Source: Pseudomonadota bacterium
Lineage (GTDB): Bacteria; Desulfobacterota; JAPLJL01
NCBI GenBank assembly: GCA_026388655.1
Contig: JAPLJI010000057.1
Span: 3,604 to 67,603, forward strand
DNA length: 64,000 nucleotides
Direction of reading: 5' to 3'
The first letter of the stretch is position 1. Every line of letters begins with the position of its first letter. A program made the translations under genes and the position numbers. Under the pieces are notes generated by a model, which saw nothing but the letters and a program-made list of their open reading frames with translations, was not told the DNA's origin and did not search any database. Below, one piece after another: positions 176 to 59,578 of the stretch.

Positions 176-328
176 TTATCTGGTCTACCTGGTCTATCTG
201 GTCTGTCATTTTAATTGACGAATGACGATTTTAGATTGACGATTCAATTTTTTTGCATTCGTCAATCGTCATTTCTTATGATTTCTTTGGTTTTCACTCC
301 GCAATCCGCAATCTACAATCCGCAATCG

Positions 329-1318: not shown

Positions 1319-1501
1319 CTGGTAAGTTTATAAATTATCGGGCGATTCTCAAACTTGACCAGGCGAGAAACGCGGGAAAAGTCCTTCGGCTTCGCTTCCC
1401 TCGACCCCGAACGGGTCTTCGGGACTAGAACCCCGGAGGGGCAGGATAAATGGTACAGGTGGGACACGCAGGATATAAAAGAAAAAATGAAGCCGAGCGA
1501 T

Positions 1502-2599
1502 TTATTGCCCGGGCATGGTCTGCAGGATAGATTCCGCGGCCTGGGTCTGGAAATGGGCGATCGCCCCTTCCACCAGCTCATCCAGTTCCCCGTCGAGGAC
1601 GCCTTCCAGGTTGTGCCGGCTCATCCCGATCCGGTGATCGGTGACCCGGCTCTGGGGAAAGTTGTAGGTCCGGATCTTTTCGCTGCGGTCCCCGGTTCCC
1701 ACCTGGGTCCGGCGGGCCTGGGAAATTTCCTTTTCCTGTTCCTGGCGATAGCGATCCATCAGCCGCGCCCGCAGGACCCGCATCCCCTTGGCCCGGTTCT
1801 TATGCTGGGATTTTTCGTCCTGGCACTGAACCACGATCCCGGTGGGCAGGTGGGTGATCCGGATCGCCGACTCCACCTTGTTGACGTTCTGGCCCCCGGG
1901 TCCCGAGGCCCGGAAGGAATCCACCCGGACCTCCTCTGGCTTGATTTCCACCTCCACCTCCTCAGCCTCCGGCAGGACCGCCACCGTGGCCGTGGAGGTA
2001 TGGATCCGTCCCGAGGCTTCCGTCGCCGGCACCCGCTGCACCCGGTGCACCCCGCTCTCGTACTGGAGGCGCCGGAAAGCCCCCTTGCCCTCCACCAGGG
2101 CGATGATCTCCTTCAAGCCCCCGGTGCCGGTCTGGCTCTTGCTCATCACCTCCACCCGGAAGCCTTTCCTTTCGGAGTACCGCGAATACATCCGGAAAAG
2201 ATCCGCTACGAACAGGGCCGCCTCGTCTCCGCCCGCGCCGGCCCGGATCTCGATAATTATATTCTTCTCGTCCCGGGGATCCCGGGGCACCAGGAGCGCC
2301 TGGATTTTTCCCTCGAGGCCCTTCTCCCGGTCCCTCAGGGTCTGCAATTCCTCCTGGACCAGCTCTTTCAACTCGGGATCACCCTCGGCAAACAGCTCCT
2401 CGTTCTTTTTCTTCTCGGCCTCCACCTTCCGCCACTCCCGGTAGGCCTGAGCAAGTTCCTCGATCTCCCGCCGCTCCGAGACGATCTTTTTGGTCTCCGG
2501 GGGGTTCTTTAAAACCGCCGGGTCCTGCAGCTTCCGGGAAAGCTCGTCGTAATGGGACCCGAGCTTCTCGAGGTAATCTAAGGTTTTGGAGTTCAGCAT
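1502..2599 (-). CDS. prfA: Peptide chain release factor 1
   Basis: 365-aa ORF with the GGQ motif ([37 protein letters not shown]), typical of RF1 and of RF1 length. Confidence 0.9.
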
Positions 2600-7170: not shown

Positions 7171-7330
7171 TTTCAGGTTTATGGTTTCGAGTTAAAGGAC
7201 GGAAAGCATAAACTGAAAAAAAGGGTTGAGGGTTCGGAGAAAAATTTACGGTTTTGCTTTTGAGGTCGTGGGTTTCTGGCCTCCCCTTCTGAGTTTCTGA
7301 ACCCGAAACCCGAAACTCGAAACTTCAAAC
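7171..7330. repeat. MITE-like element with (GTTTCGAGTT)-type terminal inverted repeats in the tatD-metG spacer
   Basis: tttcaggtttatggtttcgagtt at the left end and gagtttctgaacccgaaacccgaaactcgaaac at the right end are mutually inverted. No ORF lies within. Confidence 0.6.
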
Positions 7331-9891: not shown

Positions 9892-10863
9892 TTAGTTTCT
9901 CCCCAGAAAGAGCTGATCCGCCGCCAGGCGCGGATTGGCATTGGCCCGCACCAGGGAAATGGTGGATTCCAGGATCTCGAGTCTCCGAAAGATATCCTCC
10001 CAGTCTCTTTCCCGCTCGGCCTCCAGCAGATCCTCGAGGTCGGGGTTAATGAGCGGCAAACCCTTTTCTCTCTTTCCGGGGGACAGCTTCCAGACCATCA
10101 GGTCCCGGAACAGGCCCCGGAAAAATTCCAGCTCTTCCAGGAGTTCCGCCCGGTCGGAGGCCATGACTTCCTCTCCGAGCCCGGTTCCCGCGTCCGTTTC
10201 CCGCCAGACCCGGCCGGCGAGTTCCCTTAAATGCTGGCGCGATTCGGGGGTGATGGCCAGGGCCCGGGCCAGGCTTCCCTGGGCGGATGCGGCGATCGCC
10301 TGGGCCTCCACCCGGGGCACCCCCCGCTTCTCTTCCAGGTAAGCGGCCATCTCTTCCCCGTTCAAGGGGGAAAAAAGCACCCGCTGGCAGCGCGACACGA
10401 TGGTGGGGAGCAATCCCTCCGGGCCCGGGGCGATCAGGATGAAAATCGCGCCTCCCGGCGGCTCTTCCAGTATCTTCAGGAGCGAATTGGCCGCCTGGGG
10501 GGTGAACTTTTCCGCCCCGTCAATCACGATAACCCTCCGGCTTCCCTCCCCGGGATGGTAAAAAAGTAACTTGTTGAGCTCCCGGATCTTCTCGATCTTG
10601 ATGGTTCCTTCCTCCGCGCCGTAAAAAATCACCTCGGGAAAATTCCCGGAATCAATCCGGCGGCAGACCGAGCAGGCGTCGCAAAAGTCCCCCCGGTTTC
10701 CTTCCGGGCAGGAAACCGCCTTGGCCAGGGCCCGGGCCACCTCCCGGCGGCCCACCCCCTCCGGCCCGGCAAAAAGGTAGGCGGGGGGAAGGCGGCGGCT
10801 GGCCACCGCGCTCCGGAGCATCTCGATCTCCTTCTTATGCCCGATTATCTCTTCCCAGCGCAT
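9892..10863 (-). CDS. holB: DNA polymerase III delta-prime subunit
   Basis: AAA+ clamp-loader motifs LFAGPEGVGRRE plus a CxxC zinc module (CPEGNRGDFCDACSVC). Confidence 0.8.
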   Translation of the reverse strand: MRWEEIIGHKKEIEMLRSAVASRRLPPAYLFAGPEGVGRREVARALAKAVSCPEGNRGDFCDACSVCRRIDSGNFPEVIFYGAEEGTIKIEKIRELNKLLFYHPGEGSRRVIVIDGAEKFTPQAANSLLKILEEPPGGAIFILIAPGPEGLLPTIVSRCQRVLFSPLNGEEMAAYLEEKRGVPRVEAQAIAASAQGSLARALAITPESRQHLRELAGRVWRETDAGTGLGEEVMASDRAELLEELEFFRGLFRDLMVWKLSPGKREKGLPLINPDLEDLLEAERERDWEDIFRRLEILESTISLVRANANPRLAADQLFLGRN

Positions 10864-10883
10864 CTCTCAAATCAAAGTTTATA

Positions 10884-11198
10884 ATTTCGGGTTTCGGGTT
10901 TCGAGTTTAAATCAATCATATTTTCCTGATCACCTGCTGCCCTGATATCCACTCCCTGATTCCCTGGTTACCTGATTTCCTTCGTTTCCCGTTTATCGTT
11001 TCTCGCAAGGCTGAAGCCTTGCCCTCTCCGAGCCGTAGGCTCTTCCGAGCCGGAGGCTACGTTCTGGTTAATCTGGTTTATTGAGTTTCTTTGGTTTAAC
11101 CCGAAACCAGAAACTAGAGACCCGAAACTTTCTTTATATATTCCGCAATCCCTCCGGGCCGGAGGCCGCAATCTGCAATCCGCAATTCATTTTGTTTT
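10884..11198. repeat. Composite repeat block containing (TTTCGGG)n inverted arms, a CCTGAT-type repeat, GCTGAAGCC hairpins and a CCGCAATCC box
   Basis: tttcgggtttcgggtttcgagttt at 10884 pairs with cccgaaaccagaaactagagacccgaaac at 11100. ttccgcaatccctccgggccggaggccgcaatctgcaatccgcaat at 11151 matches the sequence at 901-950. Confidence 0.6.
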
Positions 11199-12587
11199 TT
11201 CGAGATATTCCCGGTATCTCGCCAGGGCCGAGAAGACCCGGGCGGCGTTCTCCGGCGAGCTGATGATCGGCACCCGGTCTCCGAAAGCTTCCCGGAGGAT
11301 CTCGATCCAGGCCCGGTTCCCGATCGGGGCCAGGATCAGGGTTTTCCCTCCCGGCCCCAGCAATTCCTTCGGCAGGTTTCCCACTAGCGAGGCCGGCGGG
11401 ACCCCCTGTCGGACGAATTCCTTGGCCACGAAGGAAGGCAGGACCGGGATCCCGATAATCCCGTCCAGGTCCGGATCGGAAAGGATCACGGACAGGCCCT
11501 CGCCGAAAAGTCCGGAAGGCCCCACGTCCAGGGGATTGCGGATGGACATCCAGGCGGGGGCGATCTTTTTCATCTCGTTCCGGCTCCGCTCGGAAATGTC
11601 CGGGATCGTGAGCCCCAGGTTCACGCAGGTATCAGCGGTCTGCACCCCCATCGAGCCGGAAGAGGTGATGATCCCCGCCCTCCGCCCTTTCGGGAGGGAG
11701 GCCACCGAGAAAGCCCGGGCCAGGTCAAAGAGACCGAAAAAGTCATCCGACCGAACCACCCCGCACTGGCGAAAAGCCGCCTCGAAAATGGCGTCGTCCC
11801 CGGACAAGCTGCCGGTGTGCGAGAGGGCGGCCTTCCGGCCCACCTCGCTCCGCCCGCTCTTCAGGATCAGGATGGGTTTTTTCCGGGTCACCCGCGCGGC
11901 CAGGGAAAGAAAGGCCCGGCCGTTCTGGACTCCCTCTAGATATAAAACGATCACCTTGGTGGCCGGGTCGTCCGCCAGGTACTCGATCAGGTCGAGCTCC
12001 CCCACGTCCATCCGGTTACCGATGGTGATCACCTTGCTGAAGCGGATCCCGTTTTCCGGCCCCCAGTCGAGAATGATGTTCCCGAACACCCCGCTCTGGG
12101 CCACCACCGAGATCGGCCCGGGGGCCAGGCTTTCCTGCGGAACCTGGGTGGAGATGAAGCGGTTCGCGGTGTTCACCACCCCGATGCAGTTGGGGCCGAT
12201 CACCCGGATCCCGGCCTGGCGGGCGAATTCCTTCAGTTCCTCCTCGCGCTTTTTCCCTTCCGGCCCGGTTTCGGAAAAGCCGGCCGCCTCCAGGATGATG
12301 GACTTGATTCCCTTCCGGGCGCAGGCCTGGAACACCGGGAGGCAGATCGGGGCGGGGACAACCACAATGGCGAGATCCACCTTTCCCGGGATGGCCTCCA
12401 CGTCCGGGTAAACCGGAAGCCCGATGATCTCCTTTTCCCGGGGATTGACCAGCCGGAGCCGGTCCCGGTAGCCGTTTTCGGAAAGGCAGAGGGGCAATCC
12501 GGCCCCGAAAGCGATTCCCTTGGTGGCCCCGACAATCGCGACGGTTTCCGGCTCAAAAAATGGCTTTAATTCCTGTCTCAGCTCCAA
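11187..12587 (-). CDS. NDP-forming acyl-CoA synthetase, alpha-type subunit (CoA-binding plus succinyl-CoA-synthetase-like flavodoxin domains)
   Basis: 466-aa ORF with a CoA-binding Rossmann N-terminus (VAIVGATKG...) and the phospho-His loop region SHTGSLSG. No ATP-grasp part is present in the window. Confidence 0.7.
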   Translation of the reverse strand: MELRQELKPFFEPETVAIVGATKGIAFGAGLPLCLSENGYRDRLRLVNPREKEIIGLPVYPDVEAIPGKVDLAIVVVPAPICLPVFQACARKGIKSIILEAAGFSETGPEGKKREEELKEFARQAGIRVIGPNCIGVVNTANRFISTQVPQESLAPGPISVVAQSGVFGNIILDWGPENGIRFSKVITIGNRMDVGELDLIEYLADDPATKVIVLYLEGVQNGRAFLSLAARVTRKKPILILKSGRSEVGRKAALSHTGSLSGDDAIFEAAFRQCGVVRSDDFFGLFDLARAFSVASLPKGRRAGIITSSGSMGVQTADTCVNLGLTIPDISERSRNEMKKIAPAWMSIRNPLDVGPSGLFGEGLSVILSDPDLDGIIGIPVLPSFVAKEFVRQGVPPASLVGNLPKELLGPGGKTLILAPIGNRAWIEILREAFGDRVPIISSPENAARVFSALARYREYLEKTK

Positions 12588-12832
12588 AAATCCCTCCTTG
12601 ATTATTCGCCCAGGTTAAAAAAATAGTTTCTCCCCCACCCGATGTCCATAACCACGAGCCGTCTAATTATAGTAATTTTCTATCTATTGCAAAATGTTTG
12701 GCCGCGTCTTGACCTCGGGTGGGGAGGGACCTCATTGGCGAAAACCTCTTTGGCCCGCAACCTAAAAATTTTCCCCCTTATTGTTATCATTAGCAACCTA
12801 ATGTACTGCGTCGAAAGTCCCTTTACATTCTT

Positions 12833-12984
12833 GTCATTCCGGGCTTGACTGAGCCTGCCCCGTATTTGATCCGGGGGAATCCAGCCTTTTAATCGGATTC
12901 CCACTGGAGTTTATCCCGCACTCTGATGCGGGATGGGAATGACCCCGCTTTTTTGCGGGCAGATAGAAGAAAGACGGGAATGAC
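12833..12984. repeat. GTCATTCC...GGAATGAC hairpin repeat element (about 112 bp core plus an extra hairpin)
   Basis: The core is about 88% identical to 59579-59690. The inverted termini gtcattccggg / cccgggaatgac match the short copies at 15940, 20202, 27407 and 35740. Confidence 0.75.
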
Positions 12985-13159
12985 GGCTTCGAAATTAATG
13001 TAACGAAGTGTTGGATGCACGACACTAAATGCGATAAGATGGGTCTACACGTTAAATCAACCCAACGCCTTCCATGGCATTAACCATGCAATCCTTGATG
13101 ATTCGAAATACCCTCAGCCCCGGTCCATTTCCGAAGATCTTCATTTCGGAATTTTACCT

Positions 13160-15136
13160 TTGTTCCATTGGCAAAAATCCATCATGAACAATTTTTTCAT
13201 GTCCGATTATAGTTATCTGCTCCTGCTGAAATCCTTTGTCACCATAATAAAAAATTCCTTCCTCGTGTCCTTTATTATCGCCTTATCGGTATCCTTGGGA
13301 AGTTACCTGTTAGAAAAACTTAAATTCAATTTCCCCTCATTATTAGAAAAGCTTGTTTGCTCGGCCGGGGTGGGCCTGGGGTTATATGCCCACCTGGTTC
13401 TCTTGATCGGGTTCCTGGGATGGTTATATCCTCAGGTTTTTTATGCAATTTTATTAATCAATTTTTTGCTATTTTATGGAAACCTTAAAAAATGGGTTCT
13501 GCAATTAAAAGAACAGAATTTGCTGGTTTTTTTCAGGTTTTCTGACTGGAAGCAGGTCTTTTTTTACGGGGGAGCGGCGGTAATTATCCTTTCTTCATTT
13601 CTGGTAAATCTTACCCCGGTTTCATTCTATGATAATCTAATTTACCACTACGGGGTTCCTAAATACTATATCGCCTCCCATCGAATCATATTCATCGAGG
13701 GAAATATTTATGCAAATTTCCCTCAAATAGCGGAAATGCTTTTTCTGCTGGGGATGATTCTGGATTCTCCCTTGACCGCCAATCTTATCCATTTTTCCCT
13801 GGGCATCTTTCTTTTGCTTACGGTTTACTCATTCAGCCGAAACCGCTGGGGCAATTCCGCCGCCAATTTCGCCATATTATTCCTGGTCATGACTCCCGGA
13901 TTAATGCAATGGATAAGCCTGCCAAACGTGGATATAGAATTCGCCTGGTTTAACCTGCTCGCCCTTTTTATTTTGCTTAAATGGTTTGATTGTCGGAGTC
14001 CGAAAATCCTGGTCCTGTCCGCGGTGTTTGCCGGGCTTTCAATCGGGGTGAAATATACCGGGCTCATTTATTCTTTGGGAATTTTTATTTTGTTGATGGC
14101 AATCGAAAATATCATCACCCGTCAGTTAAGCTCCCTTAAGTTGCTAAAAAATATTTCCATCTATTGCGGGGTCGGGTTGATTGTTTTCCTTCCTTATTTG
14201 ATCAAAAATTATCATTTCACCGGGAATCCGGTTTCCCCGGCGCTTCCTCAGGTATTCAATCCCAACGGGGATCAGACCCGTGAATACCAGGCCTTATTGC
14301 GGGACGGGAAAAACGTAACTTTCTCAAAAGATTTTCTCCATACGATTCCTCAGCTGGTAAAAACTTTCTTAAATAATACTGTTCTGGTAAAAAAATATAT
14401 CGAATTCGGATCGTTTATCGGACCCCATTTTTTAATATTCCTGCCTTTAATATTTTTTCTCCGAAGGAAATGGAAAGAAATCCGGCTCTTAATTTATTTC
14501 CTCATCCTTTACGCGGGATTTTGGATTGGCACCTTTTGGATGATTAGATTTTTATATCCGGCCATCATCGTTACCTTCATGCTCATTGGTTACGCCTTCG
14601 ATAATTTAGACAAAAAACCAGGTTATCCAAGATTACTTATGCAGGCGGTTTTTATCTTGATCTTTGCGTTAAATTTTTTCGTTTTCCTGGAAATCTTTGA
14701 TCGGACAAAATCAATAAAATTTATTTTCGAAGGGATGGATGACAAATTATATATGTCCCGGGTTCTAAGCTCTTATCCCGTAATGGAGAAAGCGAATACC
14801 GAATTGCCCCCCTCCGCGAAGATTTTATGCCTGGGGGAAACCAGAAATTTTTACCTGGATATTCAAAATATCTGCCCTTCCGTATTCAATGCCAATCCCC
14901 TGTTCAAAATCCTGAAAGAATCCAATGATGTTATAGAAATAAAGGCCGGATTAAAGCAGCTGAAAATCACCCACATCCTCTACGACCCGGATGAATTGGA
15001 ACGAATTAGCCATTTCGGTGTTTATTTCCCGCCCCGGAATGAAAATAGCAAGGCCGCGCTCTTTAACAAATTTTTGGAAGATTGTTGGCCCCCAGTTTAC
15101 GAACAAAATCGTGTTTATTTATTAGGGATTAAATAA
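13160..15136 (+). CDS. Polytopic membrane protein, probably a GT-C-fold glycosyltransferase (GT39/ArnT-like), in a sharply AT-rich insert
   Basis: 658-aa ORF with at least 12 predicted TM helices and a C-terminal soluble domain of about 150 aa. Local GC is far below the flanking DNA. The true start may be the MNNFF or MSDYS Met. Confidence 0.5.
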   Translation: MFHWQKSIMNNFFMSDYSYLLLLKSFVTIIKNSFLVSFIIALSVSLGSYLLEKLKFNFPSLLEKLVCSAGVGLGLYAHLVLLIGFLGWLYPQVFYAILLINFLLFYGNLKKWVLQLKEQNLLVFFRFSDWKQVFFYGGAAVIILSSFLVNLTPVSFYDNLIYHYGVPKYYIASHRIIFIEGNIYANFPQIAEMLFLLGMILDSPLTANLIHFSLGIFLLLTVYSFSRNRWGNSAANFAILFLVMTPGLMQWISLPNVDIEFAWFNLLALFILLKWFDCRSPKILVLSAVFAGLSIGVKYTGLIYSLGIFILLMAIENIITRQLSSLKLLKNISIYCGVGLIVFLPYLIKNYHFTGNPVSPALPQVFNPNGDQTREYQALLRDGKNVTFSKDFLHTIPQLVKTFLNNTVLVKKYIEFGSFIGPHFLIFLPLIFFLRRKWKEIRLLIYFLILYAGFWIGTFWMIRFLYPAIIVTFMLIGYAFDNLDKKPGYPRLLMQAVFILIFALNFFVFLEIFDRTKSIKFIFEGMDDKLYMSRVLSSYPVMEKANTELPPSAKILCLGETRNFYLDIQNICPSVFNANPLFKILKESNDVIEIKAGLKQLKITHILYDPDELERISHFGVYFPPRNENSKAALFNKFLEDCWPPVYEQNRVYLLGIK

Positions 15137-15167
15137 GGCCACGACAAAAATTTAAAAGAATCCTGTT

Positions 15168-15824
15168 CTAACGGGTCAGGTTGGAGGAGAGCGTTTGGCT
15201 CGCTATTTTGACCACCTGCCGGTATACCTCTTTCACCGGTAAAGCAGCGTTGATTACTTTTACCCGTTTTTTCTCAGCCCGGGCGATCCGGAGGTAGCCC
15301 GCGCGGACCTTACGGTGGAAATCGAGTTTCTCCCGCTCAAACCGGTCGAGCGTCTTCTTCGCTTTCCGGATCCGCCGGAATCCCTCGGCGGGGTCCAAAT
15401 CGAAAAGCAGGGTCAGGTCCGGTTGAACCCGAAGCGGAAGGAACTTGAGGAGCCGGCGGATTTTTTCCATCCCGAGGCCCCGCCCCGCCCCCTGGTAGGC
15501 CAGCGTGGCGTCCTCGTAACGGTCGCAGAGCACGATCTTCCCGGCGGCGCGGGCGGGAATGATCACCTCGGCCAGGAGCTGCTGGCGGCTCGCCAGGTAG
15601 AGCAAGAGTTCGACCCGGGGATCGATCCGGCCGGCGTTGGCCGGGTCCAACAGCAATTTGCGGATGGCTTCGCCGAGCCTGGTTCCGCCCGGCTCGCGGG
15701 TGACCAGGACCTTAAGACCCCGGCTGGAAAGATAATCCGCGAGGAGACGGGTCTGGGTGGATTTTCCGCATCCCTCTATTCCTTCAAAAGTAATGAATCG
15801 GCCCGGTACTTTTTTCAAAGTCAT
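15168..15824 (-). CDS. tmk: Thymidylate kinase
   Basis: P-loop FITFEGIEGCGKSTQ and a DRY-like LCDRY lid motif. The start is set at MTLKK because the upstream extension of the ORF runs into a hairpin repeat. Confidence 0.85.
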   Translation of the reverse strand: MTLKKVPGRFITFEGIEGCGKSTQTRLLADYLSSRGLKVLVTREPGGTRLGEAIRKLLLDPANAGRIDPRVELLLYLASRQQLLAEVIIPARAAGKIVLCDRYEDATLAYQGAGRGLGMEKIRRLLKFLPLRVQPDLTLLFDLDPAEGFRRIRKAKKTLDRFEREKLDFHRKVRAGYLRIARAEKKRVKVINAALPVKEVYRQVVKIASQTLSSNLTR

Positions 15825-15983
15825 TGTTCTTTTCCGTTTATCTCTAACCACATATTTAACAAGATAGGTAGCCGCAACCTTTAGGTTGCGCCATTTTCGC
15901 AGGCTGAAGCCTGCGGCTACCACTGAAAAATTTAACCCTGGATTCCTGCTTTCGCAGGAATGACACCCAAAAAACCTAAACTG

Positions 15984-16991
15984 TTATGAAACAAAATGTT
16001 CGTAACCCCCTCGAGAAAACGGTAGGATTTTCCCTTGGCGGTCCTTCACCGTGACCTCCGGTTTTCCCGCCTTTACCCTGCCGATCCGTTGGAGCGGAAG
16101 CTTTATTTTCCGGGCCAGCTTTTCCACCGCCTCCCATTTTCCCGGGGGCGCGGTGAAAACCAGCTCGTAATCCTCCCCCCCGGTCAGGGCCAGCCGGAGC
16201 GGGTCCCGCCCGATCTTCCGGGCCGAGGCGGCAAAACCGGCCGGGAGCTTGATCCAGTCGGCCTCGATCTCGATGGCGACCCGGCTCTCCCGGGCCAGGC
16301 GCTTAAGATCCAGGACTAGGCCGTCGGAAAGGTCCATCAGGGAGTTGGCCAGCTTATGGCGGGCCAACTCCTGGCCCAGCCGGAGCCGCGGTTCGGGGAC
16401 GAGGTGCTTCCGGATCCAGCGCCGGCCTGCCGGGTCCAGCTTTTTGCCCCGGCTTAAAAATTCCCATCCCAGGGCCGATTCCCCCGGCCAGCCCGAGACA
16501 AAAACCCCGTCTCCGGGCCGGGCCCCGTCCCGCCCGATAAAACCGGACGGGAGGGTCTCGCCCAAAACCGTCACCGCGATGAATACCGCCGGGGCGCGGG
16601 AGATGTCCCCCCCGACGAGATTGGTTTCATATCTCCGGGCCGCCCGGGCAAAGCCGGAGAAAAAATCCCGGAGGAAATCCCGGGAAAGCCCGGCGGGAAG
16701 CCCGAGCCCCAGGAAAGCGTAACGGGGCACGCCCCCCATCGCCGCGATATCGCTTAGATTCACCGTGAGAGACTTGAATCCCAGGTCGCGGGGAGGGGTG
16801 AAAACCAGGTCAAAGTGCACCCCCTCGATTAAAAGGTCGGTGGTCGCCAGCAACCGGGAACCAGGGGACGGAAGAATCACCGCGGCATCGTCCCCGATCC
16901 CCCGCAGGGCCCGGGGACGAAAATCCCGGAATCTCTTCCGGATCAAGTCAACGATTGCAAGCTCGCCGAGCTCGCGCAACTTTTTGGACAT
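15984..16991 (-). CDS. thiL: Thiamine-monophosphate kinase
   Basis: AIR-synthase-related fold with IGDDAAV and [10 protein letters not shown] motifs. The annotated start overlaps the lon 3' end by 44 nt. Confidence 0.8.
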
Positions 16992-19419
16992 TCCCGCTCG
17001 AAATATTTTGGGAGGCTTTCCGGGGCTGGGAAGGGCCGGCCTTGATCTTGTTCCGCAAGGCGATGGCGATCACCTGGTCGACATTCCGGACCGGAAGAAA
17101 CTTCACCTGTTTCTTCACGTACCTGGGGATCTCGACCAGGTCCTTCAGGTTCTGCTCGGGAATGATGATCTCCTTGATCTTGGCCCGCGCGGCCGCCAGG
17201 GTCTTTTCCTTCAGTCCCCCGATCGGCAGCACCTGGCCCCGGAGGGTGATTTCCCCGGTCATGGCCACTTCCCGCCTTACCGGGATCCGGGTCAGGGCCG
17301 AAACCAGGGCCACCGCCATCGTGATCCCGGCCGAAGGGCCGTCCTTGGGGGTGGCGCCGGCGGGGACGTGGATGTGAATATCGCTCTCCCGGTAAAAATT
17401 CCCGTTCAGCCCGAACCGGTCCGCCCGGCTCCGGGCATAGGAGAGGGCGGCCCGGGCGGATTCCTTCATCACCTCGCCCAGGTGCCCGGTCAGGATCAGC
17501 TCCCCCTTCCCCTTCATGATGATGGCTTCCACCCGGATGATATCCCCGCCGTTCTCCGTCCAGGCCAGGCCGGTGGAAACCCCCACGGAATCCTGTTCCT
17601 CCTCCTCTTCGGGCAGGAAGCGGGGCGGGCCGAGTAGCTTTTCCACGAAGTGCGGATCGATATGAAAAGGCCCCTTTTCCCCTTCCGCTACCTTCCGGGC
17701 CACCTTGCGGCAGACCTGGGCGATCTCGCGCTCGAGATTGCGGAGGCCCGCCTCCTTGGTGTACTGGCTGATGATCTTCTTCATCGCCTTATCCGAGAAC
17801 TCCAGGTGCCCCGGCTTCAGTCCGTTGGCGTCCAATTGCCGGGGGATCAAAAATTTCCAGGCGATGTTCAGCTTGTCCTCGTCGGTATAACCGGAAATGG
17901 TGATGATCTCCATCCGATCCCGGAGGGTCGGGTGAATCGAGTCCAGGAGATTGGCGGTAGCGATGAAGAGAACCCGGGAGAGGTCGAAGGGCACCCCCAG
18001 GTAGTGGTCGGTGAAATTGGTGTTCTGCTCCGGGTCCAGAATCTCGAGCAGGGCCGAGGAAGGGTCCCCGCGGAAATCCTGCCCTAGCTTGTCCACCTCG
18101 TCCATCATGAAAACCGGGTTGTGGGAACCGGCCTGCTTCATCCCCTGGATGATCTTGCCCGGGAGCGCCCCGACATACGTCCTCCGGTGGCCGCGGATCT
18201 CGGCTTCATCCCGCAGGCCCCCGAGCGAGATCCGGACGAAATTTCTCCCCATCGCCCGGGCGATGGACCGGCCCAGGGAGGTTTTCCCCACCCCGGGGGG
18301 GCCGACGAAGCAGAGAATGGGGCCCCGCATATCTTGTTTCAGCTTGCGCACCCCCAGGTATTCGAGAATCCTTTCCTTCACCCGCTCCAGGTCGTAATGA
18401 TCCTCTTCCAGGATTTTCTGGGCTTGGGGGAGTTCCAGGAAATCCTTGGTTTGTTTGCTCCAGGGAAGCTCGATCAGCCAGTCCAGGTAGGTCCGGGCCA
18501 CCGTGGCCTCGGCGGAATCCTGGTGCATCCTTTCCAGGCGGGTCAGCTGTTTTTCCGCCTCCTCTTCCACCTCCCTGGGCATCTTGGCCGCCTTGATTTT
18601 GTTCCGGAGCTCCTCCATCTCGGAGAGCCGCTCGTCCAGTTCCCCGAGCTCGCCCTGGATCGCCTTTAACTGCTCGCGCAGGAAATATTCCCGCTGGGAT
18701 TTGGTGATCCCCTCGCGGGCCTGGGACTGGATCTTGGCCTGCATGGTCAGGAGCTCGAGTTCCCGGCCCAGGATCTCGTTCAGGGAAGTCAGGCGCTGGA
18801 TCGGGTCCATGGTCTTCAGAACCTGCTGGGCGTTCTCGATCTTGAGATTCAGGTTGGCGGCCACCACGTCGGCCAGCCGGCCCGCGTCGTTGATATTCTC
18901 GATCACCATCATGAAATCCGGGGGAACCACCCGGCCCAGGGAAACCATCTTTTCCAGCTGTTCCCGGACATTCCGGATCCGGGCCTCGAGTTCCAGGTTG
19001 AGCTCCGGGGCGGGAAGCTCGGCGACCCGCTCCACCCGGACCGCCAGGAAAGGTTTTTCCTGGGTAAATTCGCGGATCCGGCCCCGTTCGAGTCCCTGGA
19101 TCAGGACCTTGACCCGGCCGTCGGGCAACTTCAGCATCCGCATGATCAGCGCGATCGTTCCGAATTCGAAGATATCCTTGGGATTAGGGTCTTCCTCGGC
19201 CGGGCTTTTCTGGGCGGCGATAAAGATGAAACGGCCCCGCTCCAGGGCCTCGTCCACCGAGCGGATGCTAATCTCCCGGCCCACGAAGAGGGTGATGATC
19301 ATGTAGGGGAAGACCACCACGTCCCGGACGGCCAGGAGTGGCAGGACTTCCGGGATCCGCAATTCCTCGGGATCCAGTTCCTTTTCCAGGGCGACTGCTT
19401 TTTCTTCCCCTTCGCTCAT
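16948..19419 (-). CDS. lon: ATP-dependent protease Lon
   Basis: 823-aa ORF with an N-terminal LON domain, the AAA+ Walker A motif GPPGVGKTS, and the Ser-Lys protease dyad region PKDGPSAG. Confidence 0.9.
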
Positions 19420-23526: not shown

Positions 23527-23624
23527 TAAAACATTTTCCCGCCTGCCCGGAAGGAAATTATCGGTTATAATAATTATATAGTTTGGTGGTTGTTCGTTGT
23601 GCCCACATAACCTCGTCAATAAAT

Positions 23625-23930
23625 ATGAATAAATTTGGAATTGCCCTCCCCGTAGAACAAATAAAATCTTTCTGCCAAAAGTGGAAAGTAAAGGAATTCT
23701 CACTCTTCGGCTCCGTACTTCGTCCCGATTTCAATCCCGAAAGCGACGTGGATGTTCTAGTGGTCTTTGCCGAAAATGCTGGCTGGGATCTCTGGGACAT
23801 CATCGAGATGCGGGATGAGCTGAAAACCATTTTTGGCCGGGAAGTGGATCTGGTGGAAAAACGCGCCCTGCGGAATCCTTTCCGGAAGCATGAAATCCTT
23901 CAGACCCACGAGATCGTCTATGCCTCCTGA
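23625..23930 (+). CDS. mntA: MntA-type nucleotidyltransferase antitoxin
   Basis: FGSVLRPD...SDVDVLVVF is the minimal nucleotidyltransferase (GS-x9-DxD) signature. The ORF extends upstream to 23583. Its stop overlaps the start of the next gene. Confidence 0.75.
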   Translation: MNKFGIALPVEQIKSFCQKWKVKEFSLFGSVLRPDFNPESDVDVLVVFAENAGWDLWDIIEMRDELKTIFGREVDLVEKRALRNPFRKHEILQTHEIVYAS

Positions 23931-24285
23931 AAAACGCGACCCAGCTCTCCTGTGGGACATCCTTAACACCGCCAAAAAGACGATCAAATCCATCGAAGGG
24001 CTTGAACTCAAGGATTACTTGGCGGATGAGAACCTCAGACTGACGGTTGAACGCCGGATCGAAATTATCGGGGAAGCCGCCCGGCGAACCAGCGAAGCAT
24101 TCCGGAACAGCCATCCCGAGATCCCTTGGAAATCAATGATCGGCCAGCGCAACGTGATGGCCCACGAGTATGACGAGATTGATCACGAGCGGGTATACAA
24201 TCTTGTCAAGCAACACCTGCCAGCATTGGTCAGCCTTCTGGAACCGCTCGTCCCTCCTCCTCCACCGGAAGAAAAAGTCTCCTAA
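23920..24285 (+). CDS. hepT: HepT-type HEPN toxin (DUF86)
   Basis: Contains RNVMAHEY, an R-x4-H-x-Y HEPN motif. ATGCCTCCTGA overlap with mntA. The long ORF from 23833 is probably an upstream extension. Confidence 0.75.
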   Translation: MPPEKRDPALLWDILNTAKKTIKSIEGLELKDYLADENLRLTVERRIEIIGEAARRTSEAFRNSHPEIPWKSMIGQRNVMAHEYDEIDHERVYNLVKQHLPALVSLLEPLVPPPPPEEKVS

Positions 24286-24589
24286 CGATTTCTCGGATTT
24301 CCCAACCTCATCGTAATAAATATACGTTCTGCCCTCCGCCTGCAGGGGGTAATAAACCCAACCCCAAGGTAGGTTTAGATCAAGATTATTAAAAAGCGCC
24401 AAATATTGGGGAGTCTTTCAAGGTAAACCCCTATTTACCCTATACCTTGAGAGTTCTTCCCTCGATCCCGAAGGTCTCGGGACTGAAGGGAGGGACGAAA
24501 ACCCCGGAGGGATGGGAAAAGAACCCAAATGGGCAGGATAAAAACCTCTACGAGCCCCCGTCTCGAATTTTATGAGATTGTCTGAGTAT

Positions 24590-24961
24590 TTAGCGAAAAA
24601 CCTTTAAAAGAAAGAGATTCAATCTTCTCAATTTATCTTTACTTGCATGCCGAAGCAAAGAAATGATATTTATCATAACTTCTTCTTTTTCCTTTTCATT
24701 TGGCAGAAGATCGAATGAGAAAAGTTCCCCAAGTTTAACCCCAAGAACACTGGCAAGATTATCCATTGTTTTCAAGGTAACATTTATCTGGCCCCTCTCT
24801 ATCGCCCCATAATATTTAGGATTAATCCCGCCTCGTTCAGCCACTTCCTCTTGAGTTAAACCTTTGGCTTTTCTTATTGATCTCAGCCTTTCCCCAAAAG
24901 CCTTATAAATATTTACCAAATCCCACCTCCTGGTTTTTATAGTAGGAGGTTGGATTAACAA
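24590..24961 (-). CDS. XRE-family helix-turn-helix transcriptional regulator
   Basis: LRSIRKAKGLTQEEVAERGGINPKYYGAIERGQINVTLKTMDNLASVLGV is a classic HTH_3 domain. It is divergent from the two downstream plus-strand genes. Confidence 0.75.
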   Translation of the reverse strand: MLIQPPTIKTRRWDLVNIYKAFGERLRSIRKAKGLTQEEVAERGGINPKYYGAIERGQINVTLKTMDNLASVLGVKLGELFSFDLLPNEKEKEEVMINIISLLRHASKDKLRRLNLFLLKVFR

Positions 24962-25229
24962 GCAAAACCATATTATAAATAGGATTGTTTGTTGATTATC
25001 CTATTTATATATGGTATTTATAATTTCATAGAAGGGCATGACCGGTTATTTCTTTAACTTCGTGGGTAATAAAAGGTTTTATTTTAATTCCAATGAATGA
25101 TAAATGGCGAAAAGGAATCATAAACTTAGATGATTCAAAATCAATTTACTTAAGAGCCCCTCCTTGTTTTGGGTAGGGGAAGTTACTTTTTAAAAAAATA
25201 AATATAAATACCAATAAGGGGGGCACAAA

Positions 25230-25628
25230 ATGTTCAAAAGGTTGAGTTTGATTTGCGGTTCGATTCTTTTTTCATTATTGATTGGTTGCGCGGTTAATGG
25301 AACTATTCCAAAAAATTATTACATTAGCACGGGGACTTTAACTACACCGGATTATCAATTGAGAGAATCGGTAAGTGGACAAAGTTGCTCCGGTTTTTAT
25401 CTTTGGGGTTTTAAAGGTGGGAAAATTGGCAGCGTTCAGGAAGCGATAGAAAATGCAATAAAAAATAATCCGAGGTTACGGGAACAAGGTGATGGAATTG
25501 TGATGTATAAGGAGAAAACCAGTCTTACTGCTTACGCTTTTTTATGTCTCTTAACTTATGGATTGGTTTGCCCAAATGTTAATTGTGTTAATGTTCAAGG
25601 AACTATGGTAAAGAAATTCGAAAAGTAG
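25230..25628 (+). CDS. Small predicted lipoprotein of unknown function
   Basis: Signal peptide with lipobox LLIGC. AT-rich. It lies between the XRE regulator and the HEPN-like gene. Confidence 0.5.
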   Translation: MFKRLSLICGSILFSLLIGCAVNGTIPKNYYISTGTLTTPDYQLRESVSGQSCSGFYLWGFKGGKIGSVQEAIENAIKNNPRLREQGDGIVMYKEKTSLTAYAFLCLLTYGLVCPNVNCVNVQGTMVKKFEK

Positions 25629-25714
25629 TTTTGTTTGAAATAAGTTCGCAGTCCTCATCCTTTTCGGGGGTGTAGTAGTGGCCCTCAACGACCGCCCCAC
25701 AGGGAAGAATTATC

Positions 25715-26569
25715 ATGAGCGACCTGATTTTTGAAATAACGAATTTTTCTTTTTTCGAGCAACTGGAATTCGGGAGAATAAGAGTAATTCCTAAAAACGA
25801 TGCAGAAAATTATTTAAAAGAATTAAAGGAAAAAGCAAATCGAAGTGGTTTTTTTCTGCCGCCAGATAATACGCCTACGCATGAAGTCACAATTGGGCCA
25901 TCTTCATGCCGGGAATCAAATCAAGATATGGAGTTTGTTTGCTGGTTACTTTCCTTCTTCAGTAAGCGATTGGTTCTCGGCTGGGATAGGGTTTATCATA
26001 ATCCGACAAATGTTGTTAATAAATGCTTAATTCCAAATAAGTCAAATTTGGAGAAAGTCTTAAAGCATTTTCTTGAAAGGTATGACTGCGCATATTATAG
26101 GAAGGTTCGGAGTAAGTATTTCAAATTTAATCCAAAAGAAGAATTTGAAGAACAGGCAATATTAAGAGCTATCCTGTATCAGCATGTTAGGCAGTATGAT
26201 TATTGGAGTAAGGACTGGATCCATGCCGCAATCGCATTTATGGAACATGACAACTTAAAAATGGTATTAGCAAATCATTCTGGCGATTACGAATTAGATG
26301 GCAAAAAACTTTTCAATAAATATGGACTTTATCAACCCAAAAAAGCCAATGAATTTCGCGATCTAAGAAATGAATTTTTCCATCGGGGAACATTTTATGG
26401 GGTTCTGTTTGATTTAAATGGAAACATTAAAAGTAATGACTTAATGAAAGAGATGACCCACCTTCGAGCACTTAACCAGCGTTTAGTATGCTTGGCTTTT
26501 GATTATGAGAATAAATTTACCAAAACCCCTTGGGACGATCGAGCAACTCACCCATTTGACATCATTTAA
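25715..26569 (+). CDS. Uncharacterised 284-aa protein with a C-terminal R-x4-H motif; candidate HEPN-domain Abi2/AbiD-like abortive-infection effector
   Basis: FRDLRNEFFHRG (R218-x4-H223) resembles the phi-RNxxxH HEPN signature. Low GC, no TM helices. Sits in an island with another HEPN toxin and an XRE regulator. Confidence 0.4.
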   Translation: MSDLIFEITNFSFFEQLEFGRIRVIPKNDAENYLKELKEKANRSGFFLPPDNTPTHEVTIGPSSCRESNQDMEFVCWLLSFFSKRLVLGWDRVYHNPTNVVNKCLIPNKSNLEKVLKHFLERYDCAYYRKVRSKYFKFNPKEEFEEQAILRAILYQHVRQYDYWSKDWIHAAIAFMEHDNLKMVLANHSGDYELDGKKLFNKYGLYQPKKANEFRDLRNEFFHRGTFYGVLFDLNGNIKSNDLMKEMTHLRALNQRLVCLAFDYENKFTKTPWDDRATHPFDII

Positions 26570-26882
26570 TTTCATCTGTCGCGGAAATTCGAGGGTCATC
26601 TAATGAATCTCCCTGCGGCAGAGACCGCAGGGTATCTGGGAAGGAAGCCTTCATCCCCGTGGCAAGACCACGGGGAATTCGGCAAAATCCTTGGTTAAAA
26701 GTCGCCCTAAAAAAGCTGCTTCTCTTTTCTAAAGATAAAATTTTTATTTTAATTCTCAATCTCGGTAAGAAAGAAATTTAGTTCTGGATTTTCCGCTTCT
26801 CAATTTATTTTCACCCTCCCCCTACTTCGCTAATCCATCCTTCGCTAAAGCTTCGGAGGACAGGAGCTTCGAAGGGCAGGCC

Positions 26883-26925
26883 ATCGTCCCCTCCCATCAA
26901 GGGAGGGGACGATGATTTTTATTAA
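26883..26925 (+). terminator. Perfect GC-rich hairpin followed by a T-run (catcgtcccctccc-atcaa-gggaggggacgatg-atttttatt)
   Basis: 14-bp perfect stem and a U-tract, lying downstream of the 25715-26569 gene. Confidence 0.5.
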
Positions 26926-26957
26926 CAATAACTTCCTGCCCACCCGTTAAAACAAGC

Positions 26958-26993
26958 AGTCTACTCTAAAGTAGACTACTCCAAAGTAGACTA
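26958..26993. repeat. Tandem palindromic site agtctactctaaagtagact / actccaaagtagacta
   Basis: 7-bp inverted repeat arms AGTCTAC...GTAGACT, with the GTAGACTA half-site repeated 16 bp later. Lies in ORF-free AT-rich DNA. Confidence 0.5.
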
Positions 26994-27406
26994 AACTTTC
27001 ATTGGTTATGATGAACCTGATTTCCTCATTTCTTGGCGGCGAGAATACCGGCGACTTGCGGGCGAAGTTCTTTCTCAAACTATTACCATAATGAAGAAAA
27101 TAACTATGTTTTATTATATTTTCTATGGCAAATGTTCGTGTAAGTCAAACAATTTCCATTTGTAATCTAATCGATAGTACAATGAAAAAACACTCTTTAG
27201 TGAATTACCCCGCTCTTACGGGCAAGGCATCACGGACAATCGTTACGTTTTAGCTTTTGTTAAAATGCTGGTAGGGGCCGATGCCCCCATCGGCCCACAT
27301 AATTGGTGCGTTCGGGGAACGCACCCTACAAAAAACCGTTGCAATGAAGCTCCCCGCGGCAAGACCGCGGGGTATCTAAATCAAAAAGACTCTTATGTTG
27401 TCTATC

Positions 27407-27474
27407 GTCATTCCTGCGGAAGCAGGAATCCAGAAAAACAAAAAAACTAGATTCCGCATCAAGTGCGGAATGAC
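27407..27474. repeat. GTCATTCC-hairpin repeat (short copy)
   Basis: gtcattcctgcggaagcaggaatccag ... gattccgcatcaagtgcggaatgac. Confidence 0.7.
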
Positions 27475-27601
27475 GGAATAAGGCAACCCTGTGGCAAGAC
27501 CACGGGGAATGGCAAGTTCATCCCCGCCCTTGACGGGGTTTTCGTATTTAACTATGAACGTTGAACCGTGAATCTTTAACCGGCCTATTTACAAAAACGA
27601 A

Positions 27602-35739: not shown

Positions 35740-35872
35740 GTCATTCCCGCGAAAGCGGGAATCCAGACCCTTTTCGTCATCCCCGCGAAGGCGGGGATCC
35801 AGAAGCAGAGGATGGATTCCCCCGGATCAAGTCCGGGGCAGGCTTGGTCAAGCCCGGAATGACAAACACTCG
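35740..35872. repeat. Cluster of three GTCATTCC-family hairpins (reverse orientation relative to the 12833 copy)
   Basis: gtcattcccgcgaaagcgggaatccag; gtcatccccgcgaaggcggggatccag; ggattcccccggatcaagtccggggcaggcttggtcaagcccggaatgac. Confidence 0.7.
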
Positions 35873-39618: not shown

Positions 39619-39820
39619 CTCGCCTCCGATCTGGTCTGTCTTGTCTATTTAGTCTATCTGGTTCATTTAGTCTGTTTAGTCTGTTTGGTTTATCTGGTTT
39701 ATCTGGTTTATCTGGTTTCTCCGGTTTCTTTGGTTAACTGATACCCTGATGCCCTGATATCCATCTCCTGATTCCCTGATTGCCTGATTTCCTGTTTTCT
39801 CTTTCTAGCCACCTAACCAC

Positions 39821-43058: not shown

Positions 43059-43082
43059 ATTTCAACCCTTGAACCCTGAACC

Positions 43083-59470: not shown

Positions 59471-59578
59471 AAATCATGCGGTGTATTAATGAAACGCTCA
59501 CCATTAATAAATTTTTCATCGTTTGCAGGGAAATATTATTCATAACGAAATAATTATGTGTGCGGCTCAAAAGTCCTT

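What the first reader, a model, noticed from the sequence alone, without database searches (positions are those of the whole stretch)
12600..15150. Strongly AT-rich insert encoding a single 658-aa polytopic membrane protein between acyl-CoA synthetase and tmk
The compositional shift is abrupt: the spacer at 12600-13160 carries a hairpin repeat and then becomes very AT-rich. The protein has many TM helices with a C-terminal soluble domain, resembling GT-C glycosyltransferases (PMT/ArnT-like) but with no clear match to the known catalytic motif in my reading. Together with the O-antigen-ligase/TPR and sugar-transferase genes 5 kb downstream, this may be a horizontally acquired envelope-glycosylation function.
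Basis: partly seen in the sequence, partly recalled or inferred. Interest (0 to 1): 0.5.

Follow-up and report, generated by a model that had tools for sequence, protein, structure and literature searches.

The report
Horizontally acquired ArnT-like membrane glycosyltransferase cassette
A 2.1-kb AT-rich promoter-plus-gene cassette for an ArnT/PMT-like (GT-C fold) membrane glycosyltransferase sits between tmk and an acetyl-CoA synthetase gene in this species only, so it is a clear but fairly ordinary case of a horizontally acquired cell-surface sugar-modifying gene.

Summary
Window 13,000-15,150 is about 40% GC against a median of 58%. It carries one ORF (13160/13184-15136, +) with GC3 0.49, against 0.70-0.85 for the neighbouring genes.

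The protein is a GT-C glycosyltransferase:
- Pfam PMT_2 scores above its cutoff.
- The AlphaFold model has pLDDT 90.

It is a real insertion:
- Four conspecific contigs carry it.
- Sister lineages at 87% and 72% nt identity have tmk directly followed by the CoA-ligase gene.
- A 94%-identical copy (13022-15136, ending at the stop codon) lies at a different intergenic site (DUF1015|yggS) in a related MAG.
- That site is empty in 95%-identical contigs and in the probable window species.
- Cassette dS is 0.13 against 0.21-0.43 for backbone genes.

No integrase, transposase, tRNA, duplication or terminal repeats were found, and no GT2 or flippase partner lies nearby. The Wzy_C/TPR and sugar-transferase genes 5 kb away are native, not co-acquired.

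The likely role is periplasmic modification of an envelope glycan or protein from a host-supplied polyprenyl-phosphate sugar. Verdict: a new member of a known kind, of moderate-to-low interest.

The parts
13184..15136 (+). CDS of the GT-C fold (PMT_2/ArnT-like) integral-membrane glycosyltransferase, 650 aa. The alternative TTG start at 13160 gives 658 aa.
13022..13183 (+). Non-coding leader that travels with the gene; presumed promoter and 5' UTR. It contains a hairpin at 13129-13151 followed by a T-rich run.
   Evidence: It is as conserved as the CDS between the window and L001, and homology starts sharply at 13022. The hairpin was listed by the scan. The fold is not better than shuffles (z -0.44). 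Promoter function is inferred, not shown.
13022..15136 (+). The transferable cassette: the stretch shared at 94% nt identity with a different chromosomal site in a related MAG (L001 9843-11955).
   Evidence: blastn 13025-15135 to L001 9843-11955, 94.0% over 2116 nt. No other gene-length similarity exists between the window and the 19-kb L001 locus. Boundary alignments.
12680..13021 (.). Insertion-associated spacer, absent from the empty sites of sister lineages and from L001. It includes the MITE-like element and a small GC hairpin with a T run (12942-12959).
   Evidence: No similarity to the L088 or L089 intergenic DNA beyond 12678. No protein-like ORF.
12830..12943 (+). MITE-like structured repeat with terminal inverted repeats GTCATTCC...GGGAATGAC; a dispersed family in this genome.
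   Evidence: Copies at 59576-59690 (86%) and 35865-35809 (91%, half copy). DNA fold -30.3 kcal/mol, z -4.38.
12618..12693 (-). Native promoter region of the CoA-ligase gene (-35 TTTGCA at 12693-12688, -10 TATAAT at 12671-12666). It marks the left edge of native DNA.
   Evidence: Best promoter match in the region, 10 of 12. Segments 12618-12648 and 12665-12678 are conserved in the empty-site relative L088.
15137..15167 (.). 31-bp spacer between the convergent stop codons of the glycosyltransferase gene and tmk; the right edge of the insertion.
   Evidence: Cassette homology to L001 stops at the stop codon. Homology to L088 resumes at about 15137-15203. The tmk C-terminus is intact compared with L089 and L009.
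11187..12587 (-). Native left flank: ADP-forming acetate-CoA ligase alpha-like gene.
   Evidence: Pfam and NCBIfam. Present next to tmk in L088 and L089. GC3 0.82.
15168..15827 (-). Native right flank: tmk (dTMP kinase).
   Evidence: TIGR00041 176.9 bits. Gene call of 219 aa in conspecific contigs.

Best explanation
A self-contained cassette of about 2.1 kb (leader plus one gene, 40% GC) was inserted by horizontal transfer into the tmk / CoA-ligase intergenic spacer of this roughly 60% GC, uncultured Desulfobacterota-like species.

The gene encodes a GT-C(A)-fold integral-membrane glycosyltransferase whose closest solved structure is ArnT. By analogy with the solved GT-C enzymes, I infer that it takes a sugar from a polyprenyl-phosphate-linked donor at the periplasmic face. 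The invariant Asp150 in the first periplasmic loop would act as the catalytic or acceptor-activating residue. The sugar would go to an envelope acceptor: an LPS, O-antigen or exopolysaccharide unit, lipid A/core, or a secreted protein.

No GT2 donor synthase or flippase travels with the gene, so it must use a lipid-linked sugar that the host already makes. This would work like GtrC or ArnT as the last step of a three-component periplasmic glycosylation pathway. The result would be a strain- or species-specific surface modification.

Shown here: the fold, the family motifs, the foreign composition, the presence/absence at two loci, and purifying selection. Inferred: donor, acceptor, promoter activity, biological role and the insertion mechanism.
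For: Fold and family:
- PMT_2 scores above the gathering cutoff.
- The AF2 model has pLDDT 90.
- Foldseek gives E 7e-8 to ArnT, followed by STT3, PglB, AglB, ALG and PMT.
- The family profile aligns to ArnT, including the NPxxP loop.
- D150 and H155 are invariant, and K290, Y291 and TGNP are near-invariant.
- The family is large: 13,812 representatives at E<=1e-30.
- Distant members sit next to GT2, GT4, epimerase and MraY-like genes.

Foreign origin:
- GC3 is 0.49 against 0.70-0.85 for the neighbours.
- Distant homologues match their hosts' GC.

Insertion:
- Conspecific contigs L082, L083, L084 and L086 carry it across both junctions at 97.8-98.8% nt identity.
- L088 (87% nt) and L089 (72% nt) have tmk followed by 316 or 128 bp and then the CoA-ligase gene.

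Second site:
- L001 has the cassette between DUF1015 and yggS.
- That site is empty in L099 and L101 (95% nt to L001), in L098 and in L096/L097.

Timing and selection:
- Cassette dS is 0.13 against a backbone dS of 0.21-0.43, and dN/dS is 0.33.

Mechanistic precedent:
- Three-component periplasmic glycosylation uses a GT-C enzyme and a lipid-linked donor (PMC11127046).
Against: - No partner genes (GT2 polyprenyl-phosphate glycosyltransferase, GtrA-type flippase) were seen among the 28 window ORFs scanned against Pfam; roughly half of the ~56 ORFs, including several at 32-42 kb and 56-63 kb, were not scanned.
- No integrase, transposase, tRNA, target-site duplication or terminal inverted repeats flank the cassette.
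- No plasmid, phage or viral-contig copy was found.
- No donor lineage is known. The next-best homologue among 5.8 billion proteins is only 29% identical.
- No Shine-Dalgarno sequence is evident before either candidate start (read from the sequence).
- The equivalence of D150 to the catalytic Asp of ArnT rests on its position in the model's secondary structure, not on a residue-level superposition.
- The assignment of L096/L097 to the window species rests on co-occurrence in the same samples.
- The dS comparison uses backbone pairs that may not be exactly the two genomes carrying the cassette.
Confidence: 0.72

Rival explanations
1. It is a native, vertically inherited core gene. Its AT-richness merely reflects the Phe/Ile/Leu/Asn/Lys-rich composition of a polytopic membrane protein, or long-term selection for low expression. 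The relatives lost it by deletion.
For: FILYNKM residues make up 55% of the protein, against 37-42% in other membrane proteins of the window. Polysaccharide genes such as wzy and wzx are classically AT-rich (own knowledge). The gene is fixed in all five sampled conspecific contigs.
Against: - GC3, which is largely independent of amino-acid content, is 0.49 against 0.75-0.85 for other membrane proteins.
- Family members in other hosts have host-like GC.
- Two successive outgroups (L088, L089) lack the gene at this site with intact short spacers.
- The only close copy lies at another locus that is itself polymorphic at 95% nt identity.
- That copy is less diverged than the backbone (dS 0.13 against about 0.33).
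Confidence: 0.05
2. The cassette is cargo of an unrecognised mobile element. It could be moved by MITE-mediated or hot-spot recombination, or by a trans-acting recombinase encoded elsewhere. The glycosyltransferase would then be a passenger whose spread is driven by the element rather than by host benefit.
For: - The same leader-plus-gene unit has sharp ends at two unrelated intergenic sites.
- A MITE-like repeat lies 80 nt upstream in the window, and other repeat families lie just upstream in L001.
- The L001 site is a hypervariable spacer. It carries heptamer tracts, and in L098 a 23S-rRNA-IVP gene occupies the same spot.
- A second AT-rich island in the window is also strain-variable and ends at a repeat.
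Against: - No TSD or TIR was found; only a 5-nt 'TAAAT' occurs near both ends, which is expected by chance in AT-rich DNA.
- The MITEs upstream in L001 are native to that spacer, because L096 has them without the cassette.
- The MITE next to the window cassette belongs to a different family.
- Only two insertion events are known.
Confidence: 0.15
3. The protein keeps the GT-C fold but is not an active glycosyltransferase on envelope glycans. It could be a protein O-glycosyltransferase for a specific secreted substrate, or a non-enzymatic membrane scaffold.
For: - Some family members carry C-terminal TPR repeats, which suggests protein partners (P0006, P0007, P0013).
- NCBI labels the homologue 'glycosyltransferase family 39', i.e. 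the protein O-mannosyltransferase family.
- dN/dS is relatively relaxed at 0.33.
- There is an extra N-terminal set of about three helices not present in ArnT.
Against: - The window protein has no TPR or MIR domain and no hit to the PMT model PF02366.
- The invariant Asp/His and KY/TGNP motifs are retained.
- The ORF is intact in all copies.
- Distant homologues sit in polysaccharide-type clusters.
Confidence: 0.08

Closest known systems
ArnT (CAZy GT83; L-Ara4N transferase; PDB 5EZM/5F15)
   Different: About 13-14% identity. No NCBIfam ArnT model was hit. No arn operon or ArnC-like GT2 gene lies nearby. About three extra N-terminal helices. The loop motif differs (P-x4-D-x3-Y-H). Acceptor and donor are unknown.
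GtrC-type O-antigen glucosyltransferases of the gtrABC three-component seroconversion systems (Shigella and Salmonella phages and islands)
   Same: This is a resemblance in how it would work. Both are horizontally acquired, strain-variable polytopic enzymes that perform the last, periplasmic step using a lipid-linked sugar. GtrC families are mutually very divergent (<18% identity) but nearly identical within a family. GtrA and GtrB can be supplied in trans (PMC3688519; PMC11127046). The present gene shows the same isolated-cluster pattern: 92% identity to one relative, then 29%.
   Different: It is not a member. No gtrA or gtrB is adjacent, and there is no prophage, tRNA or integrase context. 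No sequence relationship to GtrC was tested or shown. The host is an uncultured environmental lineage.
Protein O-mannosyltransferases (CAZy GT39; Pfam PMT PF02366; Pmt1/2/4, mycobacterial PMT)
   Different: The window protein has no hit to PF02366 at E<=0.1 and no MIR domain. The GT39 label is a by-product of the generic PMT_2 model, not evidence of O-mannosylation.
Uncharacterised bacterial PMT_2 / DUF8201 (PF26626) family, and NCBIfam LIC_10190 family membrane proteins
   Same: This is the actual sequence family. Full-length matches reach E 1e-143 to 1e-199 for more than 150 cluster representatives. Precomputed DUF8201 hits exist on the conspecific and L001 proteins. There is a weak full-length alignment to LIC_10190_fam.
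   Different: LIC_10190_fam scores 29.6 bits against a cutoff of 100, so the protein is not a member of that subfamily. No paper in the held library mentions DUF8201 or LIC_10190, so the family gives no functional information.

Membership tests
GT-C superfamily, GT-C(A) structural class | Polytopic membrane protein with the conserved GT-C transmembrane fold. | tested here: met
GT-C superfamily, GT-C(A) structural class | Conserved acidic residue in the first extracytoplasmic loop, just after a TM helix. | tested here: met
   D150 is invariant in 40 sequences at 19% mean column identity. It lies in 'LTPVSFYDNLIYH', directly after helix 122-141 and at the start of short helix 149-155.
GT-C superfamily, GT-C(A) structural class | That acidic residue superposes on the catalytic Asp of a solved GT-C enzyme (for example the ArnT or PglB loop-1 Asp). 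| tested here: inconclusive
   The fold searches return scores only, with no residue-level superposition. The HMMER alignment to ArnT covers only profile positions 211-513, downstream of D150.
GT-C superfamily, GT-C(A) structural class | Use of a polyprenyl-phosphate-linked or polyprenyl-diphosphate-linked sugar donor. | not testable with these tools
   This needs biochemistry. The only support is family analogy and GT2 or MraY-like neighbours of distant homologues.
Pfam PMT_2 (PF13231) | Whole-protein score at or above the curated gathering score. | tested here: met
   30.9 bits against 26.1; residues 198-339 match HMM positions 23-158 of 160.
CAZy GT39 protein O-mannosyltransferase (Pfam PMT PF02366, MIR domain) | Match to the PMT model and presence of a luminal/periplasmic MIR or equivalent domain. 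| tested here: not met
   No PF02366 or MIR hit at E<=0.1 for the window protein. The C-terminal domain resembles the AglB globular domain instead.
ArnT / GT83 lipid A L-Ara4N transferase | Match to curated ArnT models and an arn operon context (ArnC GT2, ArnE/F flippase). | tested here: not met
   No NCBIfam ArnT model was hit. No GT2 or flippase was found among the 28 window ORFs scanned. PDB sequence similarity is only E 0.013.
NCBIfam LIC_10190 family membrane protein (NF047510) | Score at or above the curated cutoff of 100 bits. | tested here: not met
   29.6 bits.
gtrABC three-component seroconversion module | GT-C gene adjacent to gtrA (flippase) and gtrB (GT2), usually in a prophage or a tRNA-linked island. 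| tested here: not met
   The neighbours are tmk and a CoA-ligase gene in the window, and DUF1015 and yggS in L001. There is no tRNA in 64 kb. No phage, viral or plasmid homologue was found.
Horizontally acquired genomic islet | Deviant composition, together with presence/absence polymorphism at an otherwise syntenic locus. | tested here: met
   GC3 0.49 against 0.70-0.85. Empty sites in L088 and L089 for the window locus, and in L096, L097, L098, L099 and L101 for the L001 locus.
Autonomous or site-specific mobile element (IS/transposon, integrative island, integron cassette) | A recombinase gene, terminal inverted repeats, a target-site duplication, or an attC/att site. | tested here: not met
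   No such gene lies between holB and lon. The repeat search and junction comparison found no TIR or TSD. The cassette ends at its stop codon, which leaves no room for a 3' attC.

The most novel reading that the evidence does not exclude
The 2.1-kb leader-plus-gene unit may be a recombinase-free 'surface-modification cassette' that moves between intergenic hot spots in a genus of uncultured Desulfobacterota-like bacteria. These hot spots are spacers rich in MITEs and heptamer tracts.

It would spread by an as yet undescribed route, such as hot-spot-targeted illegitimate recombination or a trans-acting recombinase. It would deliver a stand-alone GT-C enzyme from an uncharacterised subfamily (DUF8201/PMT_2 with an extra N-terminal three-helix module). 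That enzyme would rewire the cell surface by tapping a host lipid-linked sugar pool.

The evidence does not exclude this. There are two independent sites with sharp, identical cassette ends. The cassette is polymorphic at 95% ANI. Cassette dS is below backbone dS.
Probability: 0.12. Interest if true: 0.6.

Novelty: new member of a known kind. Interest (0 to 1): 0.33.

Why it matters
The locus is a clean natural example, with reciprocal empty sites, of single-gene horizontal acquisition of a GT-C surface glycosyltransferase in an uncultured environmental lineage. It shows that the strain-specific surface-glycan editing known from enterobacterial gtr and arn systems also occurs far outside the pathogens. 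Here it occurs as a lone last-step enzyme that must rely on host donor supply.

It also flags a very large family with no published study found in the held library: more than 13,000 50%-identity cluster representatives. The family has a well-defined invariant Asp/His loop motif that could be tested directly.

It does not open a long-standing question. Specialists in LPS and envelope genetics would find it expected.

Tried and rejected
- A genome-contig scan with tmk found no close relative (best 54% identity). It only gave the general tmk-holB adjacency.
- The exact-protein lookup of the long tmk ORF failed, probably because the called start differs.
- Rfam and tRNA scans of the whole window were empty.
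- A metagenome scan with the protein found only its own contig. Viral contigs, phages and plasmids gave nothing.
- PADLOC gave no hit for the glycosyltransferase.
- The afdb50 fold library was unavailable.
- The 5' leader folds no better than shuffled sequence, so I dropped the idea of a structured RNA element or riboswitch there.
- I looked for TSDs and TIRs at both insertion sites. Only a 'TAAAT' pentamer lies near both cassette ends, which I judged to be chance.
- I rejected an integron-cassette reading. The non-coding part is 5' of the ORF, the unit ends at the stop codon, and no intI was seen in the ORFs I scanned between holB and the RND pump.
- I rejected misassembly. Four conspecific contigs (L082-L084, L086) from different ENA and JGI samples span one or both junctions at 97.8-98.8% identity.
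- I rejected the idea that the insertion truncated tmk. The window's tmk ends where L089 and L009 end, and it is L088 that has a read-through extension.
- A literature search for DUF8201 and LIC_10190 returned nothing.
Full report
**Observation.**
The compositional break is real and sharp. In 400-nt windows, GC is 0.61-0.65 up to 12,400, 0.37-0.44 from 13,000 to 15,000, and back to 0.62 by 15,200. In 2-kb windows the region is 0.404 against a median of 0.579, a robust z of -3.9. Only one other island in the 64 kb is as low (23.5-27.6 kb).

One long ORF fills the region: 13160 (TTG) or 13184 (ATG) to 15136 on the + strand. Its GC3 is 0.49. Nine neighbouring genes have 0.70-0.85, including other polytopic membrane proteins (Wzy_C/TPR 0.75, RND pump 0.85). 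A CAI-like index trained on the neighbours is 0.41 against 0.57-0.74. Three distant members of the same protein family have the GC content of their own hosts. The AT-richness is therefore a property of this cassette, not of the family.

**Surroundings.**
On the minus strand the order is lon (16948-19419), thiL (15984-16991), tmk (15168-15827), then the insert. After it come an ADP-forming acetate-CoA ligase alpha-like gene (11187-12587), holB (9892-10863), a PSP1 gene, metG and tatD.

The 570-nt spacer left of the ORF has no convincing ORF. It contains:
- a 14-nt inverted repeat, 12633-12646 / 12711-12724;
- a 115-nt element (12830-12943) with terminal inverted repeats GTCATTCC...GGGAATGAC. 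This element folds far better than shuffles (z -4.4) and recurs at 59576-59690 and, as a half copy, at 35809-35865.

No Rfam family and no tRNA occurs anywhere in the window.

**What the protein is.**
- Pfam PMT_2 is hit above its gathering score (30.9 against 26.1 bits).
- NCBIfam gives only a sub-threshold full-length alignment to the LIC_10190 family (29.6 against 100 bits).
- An AlphaFold2 model built on a 40-sequence alignment is confident (pLDDT 90, pTM 0.92). It shows about 14 transmembrane helices, two large loops (142-195 and 347-413) and a C-terminal alpha/beta domain (about 541-650).
- Foldseek against the PDB returns ArnT (E 7e-8), then STT3, PglB, AglB, ALG12/9, Pmt4, AftA and Emb.

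This is a GT-C(A)-fold glycosyltransferase, nearest to ArnT.

D150 and H155 are invariant in 'P-x4-D-x3-(Y)-H-L-x2-P-K', directly after helix 122-141. K290-Y291 and T346-G-N-P349-x2-P352 are nearly invariant. HMMER aligns the latter motif to ArnT's '...VRNPEFP'. I could not obtain a residue-level superposition. The equivalence of D150 with the ArnT or PglB loop-1 Asp is therefore inferred from its position.

The family is huge and I found no published characterisation. It has 13,812 50%-identity representatives at E<=1e-30, and more than 150 full-length matches better than 1e-143. No paper in the held library mentions DUF8201 or LIC_10190.

**Is it an insert?**
A Lon search identified the relatives: 99%, 91%, 76% and 76% identity, then about 65% in Deltaproteobacteria/Thermodesulfobacteriota MAGs.
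- Four conspecific contigs from different ENA and JGI samples (L082, L083, L084, L086) align with the window at 97.8-98.8% nt. They do so in one piece across the whole tmk / insert / CoA-ligase region. That excludes misassembly.
- The 91%-Lon relative (L088, 87-88% nt) has lon-thiL-tmk, then 316 bp, then the CoA-ligase gene.
- The 76%-Lon relative (L089) has tmk, then 128 bp, then CoA-ligase, holB and PSP1.
- Neither relative has the glycosyltransferase.

Short conserved pieces of the native spacer survive in the window at 12618-12648 and 12665-12678. The latter is the -10 box of the best promoter match in the region, which reads towards the CoA-ligase gene. On the other side, native homology resumes at 15137-15203, next to the tmk stop. 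tmk itself is not truncated. About 2.45 kb (12680-15167) is therefore extra in this species.

In more distant genomes of many phyla, tmk is directly followed by holB (about 50 of 80 loci). The CoA-ligase gene is thus an older, lineage-wide insertion. The glycosyltransferase is a recent one.

**A second copy elsewhere.**
The only close homologue among 5.8 billion proteins is P0001, at 92% aa identity. It comes from MAG GCA_026388615.1. The next best hit is 29% identical.

Its locus (L001) has a different context: DUF1015 | glycosyltransferase | yggS-proC-yggT-divIVA. It is again a 39-42% GC island in roughly 60% GC DNA.

DNA identity between the window and L001 is confined to 13025-15135 against L001 9843-11955, at 94.0%. 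It starts abruptly 160 nt upstream of the ATG and stops at the stop codon.

The L001 site is empty in:
- L099 and L101, whose backbones are 95-96% identical to L001;
- L098, at 88%;
- L096 and L097, at 86%. These two come from the very JGI samples that hold window-species contigs, so they probably represent the window species.

The cassette therefore occupies mutually exclusive sites in two related species and is polymorphic within one of them.

Nei-Gojobori dS between the two cassette copies is 0.13. Backbone orthologues compared between these lineages give 0.21-0.43. dN/dS is 0.33, which indicates a functional gene under moderately relaxed constraint. The copies thus share a more recent ancestor than the genomes do. 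This points to transfer between the lineages, or to two captures from one unsampled AT-rich donor.

**How it moves is unresolved.**
- There is no integrase, transposase, tRNA, target-site duplication or terminal inverted repeat.
- The only shared feature of the ends is a 'TAAAT' pentamer, which I regard as chance.
- No phage, viral-contig or plasmid homologue exists in the collections searched.
- Both target sites are repeat-rich intergenic spacers. The DUF1015-yggS spacer is hypervariable: it carries different heptamer tracts in each lineage and a 23S-rRNA-IVP gene in L098.

I therefore favour illegitimate or microhomology-mediated insertion into permissive spacers. An unrecognised mobilisation route is the minority alternative.

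**How it most likely works.**
By analogy with solved GT-C enzymes and with three-component periplasmic glycosylation systems (PMC11127046), the enzyme should transfer a sugar from a polyprenyl-phosphate donor to an acceptor at the periplasmic face. D150 would be the key acidic residue.

Distant family members sit beside GT2, GT4, epimerase and MraY-like genes, which fits a role in glycan assembly or decoration. Here the gene travels alone. It would have to use a donor that the host already makes, much as GtrA and GtrB can serve heterologous GtrC enzymes (PMC3688519). Donor, acceptor and expression are inferred, not shown.

They are 60% GC and are conserved next to hsp20-lon in L089 and L090, which lack the insert. 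They could make the acceptor glycan, but nothing links them to the cassette.

**Comparison with known systems, and verdict.**
The closest known structure is ArnT. The closest working analogue is the horizontally acquired GtrC-type O-antigen glycosyltransferases. The protein is a member of neither (see the membership tests).

The NCBI label 'glycosyltransferase family 39' is nominal, because there is no PF02366 or MIR hit. The actual family is the uncharacterised PMT_2/DUF8201 group.

This is a well-documented new member of a known kind: a horizontally acquired envelope glycosyltransferase islet. The only unusual aspects are that it travels as a single gene and that no mobility signature is visible.

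Noticed in passing
window 23527-27607: A second AT-rich island (36-45% GC; ORF GC3 0.32-0.33) lies between the polyprenyl glycosylphosphotransferase gene and the RND pump. It carries an MNT/HepT toxin-antitoxin pair (23583-24285), an HTH_3 'control protein' (24590-24961, -) and two ORFs with no family (25230-25628 and 25715-26569). It is absent from conspecific contig L082, which has 66 bp there. In L083 and L085 it is present at only 85.6% nt and carries AbiEii, although the flanks are 97-99% identical. It is a strain-variable defence/TA hot spot.
   Followed up: partly
window 12830-12943, 59576-59690, 35809-35865: A dispersed 115-nt MITE-like repeat with terminal inverted repeats GTCATTCC...GGGAATGAC and a strongly favoured multi-hairpin fold (z -4.4). 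All copies are intergenic.
   Followed up: partly
window 27343-27520 and 1383-1450; L001 9388-9674; several copies in L096: A second short repeat family is shared at 76-87% identity between the window and the related genomes. One copy sits at the right edge of the second AT-rich island, and others sit just upstream of the cassette site in L001.
   Followed up: partly
window 298-327, 843-874, 2694-2737, 7300-7323, 10885-10908, 39634-39799, 43067-43092, 47876-47907; L001 12028-12073; L099 and L101 spacers: Many intergenic spacers carry short tandem tracts with 7-9 nt units. The DUF1015-yggS spacer of the relatives has a different heptamer tract in each lineage. The TCTTACG/TCTCACG tract differs in copy number between L099 and L101, so these tracts are hypervariable.
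   Followed up: no
window 9892-15827: The widespread tmk-holB adjacency (about 50 of 80 distant genomes) is interrupted in this whole lineage by an ADP-forming acetate-CoA ligase alpha-like gene. The same arrangement is present in L088 and L089.
   Followed up: partly
L088 4669-4821: tmk of the 87%-identical relative lacks the stop codon used in the window. It reads through for 39 extra codons into the spacer.
   Followed up: no
L098 3728-4099: In one relative, the spot that holds the glycosyltransferase cassette in L001 is occupied by a 123-aa 23S_rRNA_IVP (four-helix-bundle) gene. That spacer therefore accepts different cargo in different lineages.
   Followed up: no
window 1355-2512, 40503-41366, 52342-53484, 54658-55809: Four sizeable ORFs (287-385 aa) with host-like GC3 have no Pfam family at E<=1e-5. 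The 5' end of the first overlaps a copy of the short repeat, so its true start may lie further downstream.
   Followed up: no
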